Assembly (NCBI GenBank): GCA_009914755.4 | Contig: CP086569.2 | Coordinates: forward strand, 43,360,001 to 43,424,000 | Length of the DNA: 64,000 nucleotides | Direction: 5' to 3' | From: the human T2T-CHM13v2.0 reference genome, Homo sapiens | Shown here: positions 25,585 to 44,906 of the stretch, in pieces | How the letters are laid out: each line of letters opens with the position of its first letter | Position numbering within the stretch: the first letter of the stretch is position 1 | Translations under genes and position numbers: made by a program | The notes under the pieces: generated by a model | What the model was told of the DNA's origin: nothing | The model's input: only the letters and a program-made list of their open reading frames with translations | Database searches by the model: none

Positions 25585-27702
25585 ATATTTTTTAAATGAA
25601 AAAAAATTTCAAAGGTACTCTGCTTGGTACAATAATCAAATGTATAAACTGAGGAATAAAACATAACCATGAAACCTACTTATAACTGCATATGGAAAAT
25701 ACAGAGGATAATTTTTTAAATAACATATTTTGAAAGCCTTAACTAGTAATTTGAAGAGTTGGTATTTGAAAGGCCAGTATGAATATACCTTCAAAGCAGC
25801 AACACAGGTTCCCCATGAGGAAAAGCAAACTCAGGGAAAATAAAACCACAAAGGTTCAATCTCTTCTGACCTTTGAAAGACACAGCACAGACAGTGGTCC
25901 TTAGGACGAAGAGCAGGAGACCCCTAATTCCGTCACCATGGCGATAGGGCATAAACATTGCTGGGTGAGGGCACAATCCACATTGTGAGGTCCAACTGCT
26001 GCCAGGAAGACAGGAGTGCTTTTACATAGACCGAAAGGTCATTGAAGGCTCAGAGTTTTGTTTCAAGAACTGAATCCCAAGCCCACACGTTATTAGGCTG
26101 CGCTTCTTAAAACAGGTTATGAGATGGGAAAAAGGGCACCCACAAACATACGTATACATTATGTATATAATAATATACAGTATCATATATATAATATATA
26201 TAACCCATGTATAATATTGTTTTACATCCTGCATCTTATATTATATATATTGTATAAAATATAATAATTGATAATATATAAATTTTATATTTATACAATA
26301 TGACATATAGTATATATTATAATTTATTACATATATAATATATGTTATATATCATATATAGAATATATTATACGGTTAATATACGTATTAAATATAAATT
26401 ATACATTATATATATTATATATAATATATCTGCTATATATAATACCCATTGTGCATAATATATATATTATGTCTATGTTATATATAGTATAAAACAACAT
26501 ATAATAATATATAATTGTATATATAAAACGCGACATATAATATATATTATATTTTATGACATATGTAATATATATTATATATTATATATAATACGTTGTA
26601 TGTATAATACCTATATTAAATATAAATTATATGACTATGTTATTAATTACATGTCACATATGTTATATATTATATATTTTACATAGAATATACCGGTTAC
26701 ATACAATATATACTATGTTACCTATAATGTATAATTTATTACATGTAAAATAAAGAATGTAATATATTACGTATAATTTATAATATACAATATGTGGAAT
26801 GTGATATATATAACATATAATATATGATATATGATATACAGTATATGATATATAACATACAATATATGATACCTAATATATATGGTATACAATATATATT
26901 TTATGATATGTATTCTATATGTTTTATATTCTGATATATATAACTATTTGAAATTATATATAACTGTATAATATTTTATGTAAATATGTAATATAATATA
27001 TAACTATATAATATATTATATATAACTATATATTATGTTATATATACTTTTATAACATAATTTACATAAAATATCATAATATAATATATATTATATTATT
27101 TCATATTACATAATATATATTACATATCACCCAATATAAGTAACATACATAATATTATAATATAGATTATATTATGTTATATTAAATATCATATATATCA
27201 TGTATCATATATTCTATAATATATATGATACATTATATAATATGTATGCTGTCTATTATGTGATATATATAACTATATATAATTATATTATTATACATAT
27301 TACTAGATAAACATGTAATTCTACATATTTTCATTTATAATATATAGAATTATATAATCATATATAATTATTTATATTCTATAAAAAATTATATCATTAT
27401 ATAAATTATAATATATAAAAATTATAATATGTACTACAAATATATATATTATATATCATATATGATATAGTACCTTTGTTATATATCATAATACATATAA
27501 ATGTGTATTATGTTATCTATAATTATATAATTTCATATATAAGATGTATAATATGTATTATATATTATATATGTTATGTAATATATATAGTATATATAAG
27601 ATGACACAGGATAAATATTATATACTATGACATATAAAATATATGAGGTTATATGTTACATATAAGGCATAGCACATAACATGTAATATATATCATATAT
27701 AA

Positions 27703-28000
27703 TTTTTTTTTAGACAGAGTCTTGTCCTGTTGCACAGGGTGGAGTACAATGGCGCCATCTTTGCTCACTGCAACATCGGCCTCACGGGTCCAAGCGATTG
27801 TCCTCCCTCAGCCTCCCAGGTAGCTGGGACTACACCACACTGGGACTACACCAGCTGCCACCATGCCTAGCTAATTTTTTGGATTTTTAGTAGTGACAGC
27901 GTTTCACTGTATTGGCCAGGATGGTCTTGATCTCTTCACCTTGTGATCCCCTTGCCTTGGCCTCCAAATTTGCTGGGATTACAGGCCTGAGCCAAGATCC
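27703..28000 (-). mobile_element. Alu SINE, copy 12 (variant 'atcggcc')
   Basis: Same Alu sequence at the unit period. Confidence 0.92.
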
Positions 28001-30118
28001 ATATTTTTTAAATGAAAAAAAATTTCAAAGGTACTCTGCTTGGTACAATAATCAAATGTATAAACTGAGGAATAAAACATAACCATGAAACCTACTTATA
28101 ACTGCATATGGAAAATACAGAGGATAATTTTTTAAATAACATATTTTGAAAGCCTTAACTAGTAATTTGAAGAGTTGGCATTTGAAAGGCCAGTATGAAT
28201 ACACCTTCAAAGCAGCAACACAGGTTCCCCATGAGAAAAAGCAAACTCAGGGAAAATAAAACCACAAAGGTTCAATCTCTTCTGACCTTTGAAAGACACA
28301 GCACAGACAGTGGTCCTTAGGACGAAGAGCAGGAGACCCCTAATTCCGTCACCATGGCGATAGGGCATAAACATTGCTGGGTGAGGGCACAATCCACATT
28401 GTGAGGTCCAACTGCTGCCAGGAAGACAGGAGTGCTTTTATATAGACCGAAAGGTCATTGAAGGCTCAGAGTTTTGTTTCAAGAACTGAATCCCAAGCCC
28501 ACACGTTATTAGGCTGCGCTTCTTAAAACAAGTTATGAGATGGGAAAAAGGGCACCTACAAACATACGTATACATTATGTATATAATAATATACAGTATC
28601 ATATATATAATATATATAACCCATGTATAATATTGTTTTACATCCTGCATCTTATATTATATATATTGTATAAAATATAATAATTGATAATATATAAATT
28701 TTATATTTATACAATATGACATATAGTATATATTATAATTTATTACATATATAATATATGTTATATATCATATATAGAATATATTATACGGTTAATATAC
28801 GTATTAAATATAAATTATACATTATATATATTATATATAATATATCTGCTATATATAATACCCATTGTGCATAATATATATATTATGTCTATGTTATATA
28901 TAGTATAAAACAACATATAATAATATATAATTGTATATATAAAACGCGACATATAATATATATTATATTTTATGACATATGTAATATATATTATATATTA
29001 TATATAATACGTTGTATGTATAATACCTATATTAAATATAAATTATATGACTATGTTATTAATTACATGTCACATATGTTATATATTATATATTTTACAT
29101 AGAATATACCGGTTACATACAATATATACTATGTTACCTATAATGTATAATTTATTACATGTAAAATAAAGAATGTAATATATTACGTATAATTTATAAT
29201 ATACAATATGTGGAATGTGATATATATAACATATAATATATGATATATGATATACAGTATATGATATATAACATACAATATATGATACCTAATATATATG
29301 GTATACAATATATATTTTATGATATGTATTCTATATGTTTTATATTCTGATATATATAACTATTTGAAATTATATATAACTGTATAATATTTTATGTAAA
29401 TATGTAATATAATATATAACTATATAATATATTATATATAACTATATATTATGTTATATATACTTTTATAACATAATTTACATAAAATATCATAATATAA
29501 TATATATTATATTATTTCATATTACATAATATATATTACATATCACCCAATATAAGTAACATACATAATATTATAATATAGATTATATTATGTTATATTA
29601 AATATCATATATATCATGTATCATATATTCTATAATATATATGATACATTATATAATATGTATGCTGTCTATTATGTGATATATATAACTATATATAATT
29701 ATATTATTATACATATTACTAGATAAACATGTAATTCTACATATTTTCATTTATAATATATAGAATTATATAATCATATATAATTATTTATATTCTATAA
29801 AAAATTATATCATTATATAAATTATAATATATAAAAATTATAATATGTACTACAAATATATATATTATATATCATATATGATATAGTACCTTTGTTATAT
29901 ATCATAATACATATAAATGTGTATTATGTTATCTATAATTATATAATTTCATATATAAGATGTATAATATGTATTATATATTATATATGTTATGTAATAT
30001 ATATAGTATATATAAGATGACACAGGATAAATATTATATACTATGACATATAAAATATATGAGGTTATATGTTACATATAAGGCATAGCACATAACATGT
30101 AATATATATCATATATAA

Positions 30119-42194: not shown

Positions 42195-42492
42195 TTTTTT
42201 TTTAGACAGAGTCTTGTCCTGTTGCACAGGGTGGAGTACAATGGCGCCATCTTTGCTCACTGCAACATCGGCCTCACGGGTCCAAGCGATTGTCCTCCCT
42301 CAGCCTCCCAGGTAGCTGGGACTACACCACACTGGGACTACACCAGCTGCCACCATGCCTAGCTAATTTTTTGGATTTTTAGTAGTGACAGCGTTTCACT
42401 GTATTGGCCAGGATGGTCTTGATCTCTTCACCTTGTGATCCCCTTGCCTTGGCCTCCAAATTTGCTGGGATTACAGGCCTGAGCCAAGATCC
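42195..42492 (-). mobile_element. Alu SINE, copy 18 (variant 'atcggcc')
   Basis: Same Alu sequence at the unit period. Confidence 0.92.
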
Positions 42493-44608
42493 ATATTTTT
42501 TAAATGAAAAAAAATTTCAAAGGTACTCTGCTTGGTACAATAATCAAATGTATAAACTGAGGAATAAAACATAACCATGAAACCTACTTATAACTGCATA
42601 TGGAAAATACAGAGGATAATTTTTTAAATAACATATTTTGAAAGCCTTAACTAGTAATTTGAAGAGTTGGCATTTGAAAGGCCAGTATGAATACACCTTC
42701 AAAGCAGCAACACAGGTTCCCCATGAGAAAAAGCAAACTCAGGGAAAATAAAACCACAAAGGTTCAATCTCTTCTGACCTTTGAAAGACACAGCACAGAC
42801 AGTGGTCCTTAGGACGAAGAGCAGGAGACCCCTAATTCCGTCACCATGGCGATAGGGCATAAACATTGCTGGGTGAGGGCACAATCCACATTGTGAGGTC
42901 CAACTGCTGCCAGGAAGACAGGAGTGCTTTTACATAGACCGAAAGGTCATTGAAGGCTCAGAGTTTTGTTTCAAGAACTGAATCCCAAGCCCACACGTTA
43001 TTAGGCTGCGCTTCTTAAAACAAGTTATGAGATGGGAAAAAGGGCACCTACAAACATACGTATACATTATGTATATAATAATATACAGTATCATATATAT
43101 AATATATATAACCTATGTATAATATTGTTTTACATCCTGCATCTTATATTATATATATTGTATAAAATATAATAATTGATAATATATAAATTTTATATTT
43201 ATACAATATGACATATAGTATATATTATAATTTATTACATATATAATATATGTTATATATCATATATAGAATATATTATACGGTTAATATACGTATTAAA
43301 TATAAATTATACATTATATATATTATATATAATATATCTGCTATATATAATACCCATTGTGCATAATATATATATTATGTCTATGTTATATAATATAAAA
43401 CAACATATAATAATATATAATTGTATATATAAAACGCGACATATAATATATATTATATTTTATGACATATGTAATATATATTATATATTATATATAATAC
43501 GTTGTATGTATAATACCTATATTAAATATAAATTATATGACTATGTTATTAATTACATGTCACATATGTTATATATTATATATTTTACATAGAATATACC
43601 GGTTACATACAATATATACTATGTTACCTATAATGTATAATTTATTACATGTAAAATAAAGAATGCAATATATTATGTATAATTTATAATATACAATATG
43701 TGGAATGTGATATATATAACATATAATATATGATATATGATATACAGTATATGATATATAATATACAATATATGATACCTAATATATATGGTATACAATA
43801 TATATTTTATGATATGTATTCTATATGTTTTATATTCTGATATATATAACTATTTGAAATTATATATAACTGTATAATATTTTATGTAAATATGTAATAT
43901 AATATATAACTATATAATATATTATATATAACTATATATAATGTTATATATACTTTTATAACATAATTTACATAAAATATCATAATATAATATATATTAT
44001 ATTATTTCATATTACATAATATATATTACATATCACCCAATATAAGTAACATACATAATATTATAATATAGATTATATTATGTTATATTAAATATCATAT
44101 ATATCATGTATCATATATTCTATAATATATATGATACATTATATAATATGTATGCTGTCTATTATGTGATATATATAACTATATATAATTATATTATTAT
44201 ACATATTACTAGATAAACATGTAATTCTACATATTTTCATTTATAATATATAGAATTATATAATCATATATAATTATTTATATTCTATAAAAAATTATAT
44301 CATTATATAAATTATAATATATAAAAATTATAATATGTACTACAAATATATATATTATATATCATATATGATATAGTACCTTTGTTATATATCATAATAC
44401 ATATAAATGTGTATTATGTTATCTATAATTATATAATTTCATATATAAGATGTATAATATGTATTATATATTATATATGTTATGTAATATATATAGTATA
44501 TATAAGATGACACAGGATAAATATTATATACTATGACATATAAAATATATGAGGTTATATGTTACATATAAGGCATAGCACATAACATGTAATATATATC
44601 ATATATAA

Positions 44609-44906
44609 TTTTTTTTTAGACAGAGTCTTGTCCTGTTGCACAGGGTGGAGTACAATGGCGCCATCTTTGCTCACTGCAACATCGGCCTCACGGGTCCAAG
44701 CGATTGTCCTCCCTCAGCCTCCCAGGTAGCTGGGACTACACCACACTGGGACTACACCAGCTGCCACCATGCCTAGCTAATTTTTTGGATTTTTAGTAGT
44801 GACAGCGTTTCACTGTATTGGCCAGGATGGTCTTGATCTCTTCACCTTGTGATCCCCTTGCCTTGGCCTCCAAATTTGCTGGGATTACAGGCCTGAGCCA
44901 AGATCC
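44609..44906 (-). mobile_element. Alu SINE, copy 19 (variant 'atcggcc')
   Basis: Same Alu sequence at the unit period. Confidence 0.92.

What the first reader, a model, noticed from the sequence alone, without database searches (positions are those of the whole stretch)
26100..44906. Imperfect 3-unit higher-order repeat with a recombinant seventh unit (26-45 kb block)
Alu diagnostic states run C,C,G,C,C,G,C,C. Two independent AT-part markers run A,A,B,A,A,B,B,A. The first six units are therefore two copies of a ~7.24 kb 3-unit HOR. The seventh unit pairs a B-type AT part with a C-type Alu. That is the signature expected from unequal crossing-over or gene conversion between misaligned HOR copies. 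The block also has its own unit length (2414-2416 bp versus 2420 bp elsewhere) and private variants ('aaaacgcgac', 'cacctacaaac', 'acccatgtataat'), which indicates local homogenisation.
Basis: seen in the sequence. Interest (0 to 1): 0.55.

Follow-up and report, generated by a model that had tools for sequence, protein, structure and literature searches.

The report
Locally amplified DYZ2 satellite sub-block
This is an ordinary stretch of the human 2.4-kb DYZ2 (HSat1B) satellite in which eight neighbouring repeat units descend recently from one variant unit. The apparent three-unit pattern rests on a single variant type seen twice, so it is a by-product of whole-unit duplications rather than an established higher-order repeat.

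Summary
The whole 64-kb window is DYZ2/HSat1B satellite: 26 tandem units of about 2,420 bp, each with an AT-rich part, one 5'-truncated Alu and a GC-richer part. So units 26142-45463 are a real, locally homogenised sub-block.

The "3-unit HOR" is weak. All nine period-3 sites give one split, {unit 3, unit 6} against {1,2,4,5}, which falls at spacing 3 by chance with P=0.2. The lag-3 permutation test gives P=0.055 for eight units and 0.20 for six. Units 1 and 2 are identical over 2416 bp. Units 4 and 5 share derived variants. No derived variant joins 1+4 or 2+5. Units 1-6 fit a perfect tree ((1,2),(4,5)),(3,6). That tree implies a 2-unit duplication followed by two single-unit duplications.

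The argument for a "recombinant seventh unit" fails. Its "B-type" AT states are the ancestral DYZ2 states (17/17 external copies). Unit 7 still looks mosaic on other grounds: 10 private changes in 40541-41825 and none in the next 1.29 kb. Unit 8 causes 28 of the 30 site conflicts.

This is known satellite behaviour and of low interest.

The parts
1..64000 (.). DYZ2/HSat1B satellite array: 26 tandem units of about 2.42 kb, each with an AT-rich part, one Alu and a GC-richer HSATI part.
   Evidence: Anchor spacing is 2414-2421 bp. GC alternates between 0.13 and 0.40. The unit matches published descriptions and the 2,420-bp consensus length. Sixty-two external human-derived contigs share an exact 33-mer, and the best are 99.2-99.4% identical over full units.
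26142..45463 (.). Sub-block of eight units (F1-F8) forming one private variant family. F1 26142-28557; F2 28558-30973; F3 30974-33389; F4 33390-35803; F5 35804-38217; F6 38218-40633; F7 40634-43049; F8 43050-45463. The left border lies between 26141 and 26206.
   Evidence: Pairwise differences are 0-21 per unit inside the block and 43-86 to all other units except the hybrid u09 (26-33). The block has private k-mers and shared TA deletions. At 26115 and 26141 it still carries the upstream-type states.
26142..31419 (.). Most recent event: an exact single-unit tandem duplication. 26142-29003 is identical to 28558-31419, so F1 = F2.
   Evidence: This 2862-bp run at shift 2416 is the longest exact self-match in the window. 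F1-F2 distance is 0.
27704..27994 (-). Alu of F1: 5'-truncated, on the minus strand, with its poly-A tail read as a T run. Homologous Alus lie at 30120-30410, 32536-32826, 34950-35240, 37364-37654, 39780-40070, 42196-42486 and 44610-44900.
   Evidence: There is a weak hit to the Alu-derived mir-1268 model.
32559..32794 (.). B-type Alu haplotype in F3: variants at 32559, 32610, 32620, 32787, 32792 and 32794. It includes three substitutions within 8 bp (TTGCCTTGGCC to TTGACTTGACG).
   Evidence: The 25-mer is absent from the rest of the window, from metagenome contigs and from genome contigs.
39803..40038 (.). The same B-type Alu haplotype in F6: variants at 39803, 39854, 39864, 40031, 40036 and 40038.
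40541..41825 (.). Divergent segment of the seventh unit: 10 changes private within the block, 9 derived plus ancestral G at 40732. It also keeps the ancestral T at 41426 and 41741.
   Evidence: There are no private changes from 41826 to 43112. The left half differs by 9-17 sites from every other unit; the right half differs by 1 site from F1, F2 and F5. P=0.0015 for the pre-set split, and roughly 0.02-0.04 after allowing for a post hoc breakpoint (the correction is my own calculation).
45044..45270 (.). Tail of the eighth unit: C at 45044 (shared only with F3), ancestral T at 45108 and private C at 45270. This is the source of most site conflicts and lies at the block's right edge.
   Evidence: Removing F8 reduces the polarised incompatible pairs from 30 to 2.

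Best explanation
The window is human DYZ2 (HSat1B) satellite, most likely from Yq12. Units 26142-45463 are a young local family that descends from one variant unit. That founder had two TA deletions and several point changes. The family grew by whole-unit tandem duplications, produced by unequal sister-chromatid exchange or replication slippage in register. Occasional conversion-like patches were added later.

For the first six units the simplest history has two steps. First, a two-unit segment (A B) was duplicated to A B A B. Second, each A unit was duplicated on its own: units 4/5 earlier (6 differences) and units 1/2 very recently (0 differences). The A A B A A B order is therefore a by-product, not a propagating 3-unit higher-order repeat.

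Unit 7 keeps an older, diverged AT part joined to a young A-type right half. Unit 8 is an A-type unit with a foreign tail at the block's edge.

Shown: the unit relationships, the ancestral polarity of the markers, and the mosaic distribution of variants. Inferred: the order and mechanism of events.
For: Identity as DYZ2:
- Unit length 2420 bp, three-part composition and an Alu 82.6% identical to AluY.
- These agree with Rhie 2023 and Hallast 2023.
- External human contaminant contigs are up to 99.4% identical.

Local family:
- Block-private variants are absent from the rest of the window and from 62 external copies.
- The block shares private TA deletions.

History of the first six units:
- F1 = F2 exactly over 2416 bp, within a 2862-bp exact run.
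- Derived sites are shared by F1+F2 (3 sites), by F4+F5 (1 site) and by F4+F5+F8 (an indel plus 1 site).
- F3+F6 share 5-6 sites. No site is shared by F1+F4 or F2+F5.
- With F7 and F8 removed, all 19 polarised informative sites are compatible. The tree is ((F1,F2),(F4,F5)),(F3,F6).
- That tree is a valid tandem-duplication tree for a 2-unit event followed by two 1-unit events (my inference).

Rate plausibility:
- De novo gains or losses of 2,416-4,839 bp, each covering whole DYZ2 units, occur about once per Y transmission.
- 29% of Yq12 de novo point changes look like gene conversion (Porubsky 2025).

Other parts of the window show identity tracts at lags 1, 2, 3, 4 and 6, so no fixed period exists.
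Against: - Turning A B A B into A A B A A B by two random single-unit duplications has only about a 10% prior chance (my calculation).
- Lag 3 does have the lowest divergence of all lags (4.5 against 4.8-6.9 differences per kb), and the permutation P is 0.055.
- The Alu string C,C,G,C,C,G,C,C fits period 3 over all eight units.
- Frequent conversion (at least 4 conflict intervals) means that neighbour homogenisation after a true 3-unit duplication cannot be excluded.
- The chromosomal origin could not be checked, because no human assembly is available to the tools.
Confidence: 0.72

Rival explanations
1. A genuine, nascent 3-unit (7.25-kb) higher-order repeat. One A-A-B segment was duplicated (a third copy starts at units 7-8). 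Neighbouring A units were then homogenised by conversion, and unit 7 was altered by exchange.
For: - The B-type Alu haplotype (6 linked sites) sits exactly at units 3 and 6. The remaining Alus are A-type, which fits period 3 over all eight units.
- Lag 3 has the lowest divergence, with P=0.055.
- Distances F1-F4, F2-F5 and F3-F6 are similar in size: 10, 10 and 6.
- Conversion is frequent in Yq12.
- A second lag-3 identity tract exists 5 kb downstream: 50505-55865 repeats at +7259.
Against: - All periodic sites form one bipartition, with chance probability 0.2, and there are only two copies.
- No derived variant is shared by F1+F4 or F2+F5.
- F1 = F2 exactly, and F4+F5 share derived variants. 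The model therefore needs at least two extra unit-length conversions.
- Unit lengths run L,L,L,S,S,L,L,S, which is not periodic.
- There is no long exact run at lag 3 inside the block.
- The window shows lags 1, 2, 3, 4 and 6 with no common period.
Confidence: 0.2
2. Assembly artefact. The exact unit duplication and the mosaic units come from mis-joined or collapsed reads in a near-identical satellite, not from biology.
For: - F1 = F2 is a perfect 2.4-kb duplicate.
- Satellite arrays more than 98% identical are hard to assemble.
- The irregular 3233-bp unit lies at the block border.
Against: - Variants are shared in a coherent, nested manner across units: a perfect tree for F1-F6.
- Block-wide private markers and indels are consistent throughout.
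- Real de novo events of exactly this size (2,416 bp) are documented in pedigrees.
- No read data are available to test this directly.
Confidence: 0.05

Closest known systems
DYZ2 / HSat1B satellite of human Yq12, the 2.4-kb 'satellite I' unit with one Alu per repeat (also present in smaller arrays on acrocentric short arms)
   Same: - The unit length is 2420 bp, equal to the published consensus length.
- The unit has the AT-rich part, the 5'-truncated Alu about 17-20% diverged from AluY, and the GC-richer HSATI part.
- The ACATACG junction motif is present.
- Most units are about 97-98% or more identical to each other.
- Evolution is by local expansion, contraction and conversion.
   Different: Nothing essential differs. 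This block is a private sub-variant with 2414-2416-bp units. It is 98.4-98.6% identical to consensus-like external copies, against 99.2-99.4% for the downstream units u19-u25.
Alpha-satellite higher-order repeats (for example DYZ3)
   Same: Variant unit types alternate along a tandem array, and multi-unit segments can be duplicated by unequal exchange.
   Different: - In a true HOR the same position in different copies is far more similar than different positions within one copy, and the period holds over many copies.
- Here positions 1 and 2 are indistinguishable: 0-6 differences within a copy against 10 between copies.
- Types differ by only 0.6-0.8%.
- There are only two copies, and the surrounding array shows other lags.
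Hyper-local nested tandem repeats and recent small-scale duplications in human satellites (Altemose 2021 preprint; Rhie 2023, Extended Data Fig. 8d)
   Same: Periodicity varies across an array, and recent small duplications and deletions are superimposed on the basic unit. This is the best description of what is seen here.
   Different: Those reports do not describe this particular block, and I found no published mention of a 3-unit DYZ2 periodicity. With two copies it does not qualify as one.

Membership tests
DYZ2 / HSat1B satellite | Tandem unit of about 2.4 kb (published consensus 2,420 bp) | tested here: met
   25 anchor spacings: 11 are exactly 2420 bp and the range is 2414-2421, apart from one unit of 3233 bp. 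The consensus length comes from Hallast 2023.
DYZ2 / HSat1B satellite | Three-part unit: AT-rich part over 85% AT, 5'-truncated Alu about 20% diverged from AluY, and a GC-richer HSATI part | tested here: met
   GC falls to 0.13-0.15 in the AT parts and reaches 0.40 in the others. The Alu matches 228/276 positions (82.6%) of AluY positions 13-288, on the minus strand.
DYZ2 / HSat1B satellite | ACATACG heptamer at the HSATI/AT-part junction | tested here: met
   Present at the expected position in 24 of 26 units. The motif is described in Hallast 2023.
DYZ2 / HSat1B satellite | Sequence identity to independent human DYZ2 copies | tested here: met
   44 metagenome contigs and 18 'bacterial genome' contigs share an exact 33-mer. 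Full-unit contigs are 98.4-99.4% identical. Such contamination is described by Rhie 2023.
DYZ2 / HSat1B satellite | Location on Yq12 rather than on an acrocentric short arm | not testable with these tools
   No human assembly can be searched. The 2420-bp units and 99% identity to the commonest contaminant copies favour Yq12, by inference only.
Higher-order repeat (HOR) | Units at the same position in different copies are clearly more alike than units at different positions in one copy | tested here: not met
   F1-F2 has 0 differences and F4-F5 has 6 (different positions). F1-F4 and F2-F5 have 10 each (same position). Only position 3 behaves as expected: F3-F6 has 6 against 15-19.
Higher-order repeat (HOR) | Copies share derived variants position by position (1 with 4, 2 with 5, 3 with 6) | tested here: not met
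   Derived sites join F1+F2, F4+F5(+F8) and F3+F6. None joins F1+F4 or F2+F5.
Higher-order repeat (HOR) | Periodicity beyond chance and maintained over several copies | tested here: inconclusive
   There are two copies plus a partial third. Permutation P is 0.055 for eight units and 0.20 for six. One bipartition has a chance probability of 0.2. The lag-3 contrast is small. The neighbouring array uses other lags.
Recombinant (hybrid) repeat unit | Shares derived variants with one parent type on one side of a breakpoint and with another parent type on the other side | tested here: not met
   Unit 7 shares derived states only with the A type (27778-G and 28202-C equivalents). Its 'B' states are ancestral: 17/17 external copies and all other window units carry them.
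Recombinant (hybrid) repeat unit | Sharp change of divergence along the unit | tested here: met
   Unit 7 has 10 private changes in 40541-41825 and none in the next 1287 bp. The left half shows 9-17 differences and the right half 1-4 to A-type units. P is 0.0015, or about 0.02-0.04 post hoc. Unit 8 accounts for 28 of 30 polarised conflicts.

The most novel reading that the evidence does not exclude
DYZ2 arrays may be starting to evolve 3-unit (about 7.25-kb) higher-order repeats. Two adjacent sub-blocks of one array each show a lag-3 relationship: F3/F6 in this block, and 50505-55865 repeated at +7259 downstream. This could reflect a preferred 3-unit register of unequal exchange rather than coincidence.
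Probability: 0.08. Interest if true: 0.35.

Novelty: already known. Interest (0 to 1): 0.12.

Why it matters
It matters little beyond bookkeeping. The block is a clean small-scale example of how Yq12 satellite arrays turn over. That turnover involves whole-unit duplications, an exact 2,416-bp duplicate, mosaic units and private sub-families, all as described in the T2T-Y, 43-Y and pedigree studies.

The methodological lesson is more useful. Marker strings in a tandem array must be polarised against outgroup copies and collapsed into independent bipartitions before a periodicity or a recombinant is called. Here nine 'periodic' sites were one split, and the 'B-type' AT states were simply ancestral.

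Tried and rejected
- Tandem Repeats Finder reports only periods of 500 bp or less, so it lists AT-rich micro-repeats and never the 2.4-kb unit. Anchors and MAFFT were used instead.
- The Rfam scan of two units gave only sub-threshold hits to the Alu-derived mir-1268 model.
- The B-type Alu 25-mer was searched in metagenome and genome contigs. There were no matches, so it remains open whether B is a wider DYZ2 subtype. The positive control with the common allele worked.
- One external contig (L001) carries the block's C at the 28202-equivalent site. It is only 95.8% identical, so this is homoplasy and not the same block.
- Unit 7's AT part as a conversion from another unit in the window was rejected. 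Its private alleles are absent from external copies, and the four that recur in the window each recur in different units; two are CpG transitions.
- A triplet-style recombination argument for unit 7 (4 B-like sites followed by 8 A-like sites) was rejected. All the B-like matches and six of the eight A-like matches are shared ancestral states.
- The downstream units as a clean X-Y-Z HOR was rejected. The partial unit u26 is not X-type, and the identity tract covers only 2.2 of the 3 units.
- The external long contigs could not be used for a lag analysis, because at most 10 kb is held per locus.

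
Full report
WHAT THE SEQUENCE IS

The whole window is one tandem array. A 20-mer anchor recurs 26 times, and 11 of the 25 spacings are exactly 2420 bp. GC content swings between about 0.13 and 0.40 within each unit.

Each unit has three parts: a very AT-rich part, one Alu on the minus strand, and a GC-richer part.

This is the published description of DYZ2/HSat1B. Hallast et al. give a 2,420-bp consensus and the ACATACG junction motif. Rhie et al. describe the AT-rich part, an Alu about 20% diverged, and the GC-richer part. 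The motif is present in 24 of 26 units.

A 33-mer from the Alu fetched 44 metagenome contigs and 18 'bacterial genome' contigs. These are human contamination of the type Rhie et al. reported. The full-unit contigs are 98.4-99.4% identical to the window's units. Chromosomal location could not be tested. Yq12 is the likely source, by inference.

CHECK OF THE OBSERVATION

I cut the array into units u01-u25 and aligned them.
- Unit lengths are 2416, 2416, 2416, 2414, 2414, 2416, 2416, 2414.
- The Alu state at 27727 runs C,C,G,C,C,G,C,C. Five more Alu sites give the same split (27778, 27788, 27955, 27960, 27962).
- The two AT-part sites 26934 and 27249 run A,A,B,A,A,B,B,A.
- The three private k-mers occur only in this block.
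- The shorter length comes from two TA deletions shared with u09. A third TA deletion occurs in units 4, 5 and 8.

The block is a real family. Units inside it differ by 0-21 sites. They differ by 43-86 sites from units outside, except the hybrid u09 at 26-33. Its left border lies between 26141 and 26206, so I re-phased the units as F1-F8 starting at 26142.

IS THERE A PERIOD OF THREE?

The nine sites that are periodic over the first six units all give one bipartition: {F3,F6} against {F1,F2,F4,F5}. Six of them lie within 235 bp of the Alu. They therefore count as one observation, 'the B type occurs at units 3 and 6'.

Two of six units fall three apart in 3 of 15 arrangements (P=0.2). Two of eight do so in 5 of 28 (P=0.18). 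Exact permutation of unit order on the distance matrix gives P=0.055 for lag 3 over eight units and 0.20 over the first six.

Differences per kb by lag are 5.8, 6.9, 4.5, 5.7, 6.5, 5.3 and 4.8 for lags 1-7. Lag 3 is the lowest, but the contrast is small. Inside the block, exact runs of 1 kb or more occur at lags 1, 5, 6 and 7 and not at lag 3. Unit lengths are not periodic.

More telling is which units share derived variants.
- F1 and F2 are identical over all 2416 bp. They lie within a 2862-bp exact run, the longest self-match in the window.
- F4 and F5 share a derived C at the 26518-equivalent site. With F8 they share a TA deletion and an A at the 26487-equivalent site.
- F3 and F6 share the Alu haplotype.
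- No derived variant joins F1 with F4 or F2 with F5, which is what copying a 3-unit segment predicts.

With ancestral states taken from the other 17 units, the 19 informative sites give 30 conflicting pairs. Removing F8 leaves 2. Removing F7 and F8 leaves none. F1-F6 therefore fit a perfect tree, ((F1,F2),(F4,F5)),(F3,F6).

For units in this order, that tree corresponds to three events (inference). A two-unit duplication turns A B into A B A B. Two independent single-unit duplications of A follow, the F1/F2 one being very recent.

The alternative is a true 3-unit duplication followed by unit-length homogenisation of both A-A pairs. It needs more events, but conversion is common in Yq12, so it cannot be excluded. 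I give it about 0.2.

IS THE SEVENTH UNIT A RECOMBINANT?

Polarising the markers removes that argument.
- T at 26934 and T at 27249 are carried by all 17 non-block units of the window.
- The same states are carried by 17 of 17 external copies at each site.
- F7 therefore simply lacks two changes that arose on the A lineage, and it shares no derived state with B.
- AT markers against Alu markers show only three haplotypes, which a tree explains without exchange.

F7 nevertheless looks mosaic on other evidence.
- It carries 10 changes private within the block, all between 40541 and 41825, and none in the following 1287 bp.
- Its left half differs from every other unit by 9-17 sites. Its right half differs from F1, F2 and F5 by a single site.
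- About 52% of other singletons fall in the left half, so all ten falling there has P=0.0015. Allowing for the breakpoint being chosen afterwards, I estimate roughly 0.02-0.04 (the correction is my own calculation).
- The private alleles are absent from external copies. The left part therefore looks like an old resident lineage, not a patch copied from a consensus-type unit.

The likeliest reading is an old unit whose right half was replaced by, or exchanged with, an A-type unit.

F8 is the stronger mosaic. Its tail carries a C at 45044 shared only with F3, and the ancestral T at 45108. It produces 28 of the 30 conflicts. It also lies at the block's right edge.

MECHANISM AND CONTEXT

The literature describes Yq12 satellites as evolving by unequal exchange, with local expansions and contractions. 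A four-generation pedigree found about one de novo structural change per Y transmission. Each was 2,416-4,839 bp and covered whole DYZ2 units. In that study 29% of Yq12 point changes matched non-orthologous copies, suggesting gene conversion. Satellite periodicity is also reported to vary hyper-locally along arrays.

The rest of the window behaves the same way, with near-identity tracts at several lags.
- Lag 2: u08 and u10 differ at 3 sites.
- Lag 3: 50505-55865 repeats at +7259 with 8 differences.
- Lag 4: u19-u20 resemble u23-u24.
- Lag 6: the left half of u01 resembles u07.
- There are further mosaic units and a 3233-bp unit with an 814-bp partial duplication.

There is no common period.

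ROUGH DATING (INFERENCE ONLY)

The published Yq12 rate is 3.86e-7 per bp per generation. At that rate two 2416-bp units diverge by about 0.0019 differences per generation. The six differences between F3 and F6 then correspond to a few thousand generations. Zero differences between F1 and F2 correspond to fewer than about 1,600 generations at 95%.

VERDICT

The '3-unit HOR' is not established and is contradicted by the pattern of shared derived variants. The 'recombinant seventh unit' is not shown by the markers cited, although unit 7, and more clearly unit 8, are mosaic. All of this is known DYZ2 behaviour, so interest is low.

Noticed in passing
window 45322-48554 (insertion 45802-46615): One unit (u19) is 3233 bp long because about 814 bp of the AT-rich part is present twice. 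The extra copy is 97% identical to the AT part of units such as 4606-5483 and 16704-17581, and 95% identical to the adjacent copy at 46539-47392. It sits exactly at the border between the 2416-bp family and the downstream family, so it looks like an out-of-register exchange junction.
   Followed up: partly
window 50505-55865 versus 57764-63124: This lag-3 (+7259 bp) identity tract is stronger than anything in the flagged block: 3699 bp with one mismatch and about 5.4 kb with 8 differences. The downstream units read X Y Y' Z X Y' Z W. The tract covers only 2.2 of the 3 units, and the next unit (63074-64000) is not X-type, so this is not a clean HOR either.
   Followed up: partly
window 18744-26000 (u08-u10): u08 and u10 differ at only 3 sites, and 18270-19793 repeats exactly at +4836, so this is a lag-2 relationship. 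The unit between them (u09, 21164-23579) carries the flagged block's two TA deletions and its G at the 27778-equivalent site, but has an upstream-type left half. It is an outlying or hybrid member of the block family, separated from the block by u10.
   Followed up: partly
window 1806-4225 (u01) and 16324-18743 (u07): u01 has 16 singleton changes, all in its right half. Its left half shares many variants with u07, six units away. This is another mosaic unit.
   Followed up: no
window 32784-32796 and 40028-40040: The B-type Alu carries three substitutions within 8 bp (TTGCCTTGGCC to TTGACTTGACG). They create a TTGAC-TTGAC direct repeat and a new CpG. The variant is private to units 3 and 6 and absent from 62 external copies, so it looks like one multi-nucleotide mutation event.
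   Followed up: partly
window 26141/26206 through 43049/43113: Two block markers 65 bp apart are staggered by one unit. CACCTAC occurs in u12-u18, whereas ACCCATG occurs in u11-u17. This is the pattern expected if the family was amplified with its junction between these two sites. It also conflicts with the deletion shared by units 4, 5 and 8.
   Followed up: partly
loci L045-L062 (for example L045 = LZSC01000004.1, 'Mycobacterium sp.', 2497 bp): Eighteen contigs deposited as bacterial genome sequence are human DYZ2, with L045 99.4% identical to unit u21. This is contamination of the kind reported by Rhie et al. The external copies fall into a 98-99% class and an 88-96% class. The second class may be acrocentric or degenerate HSat1B.
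   Followed up: partly
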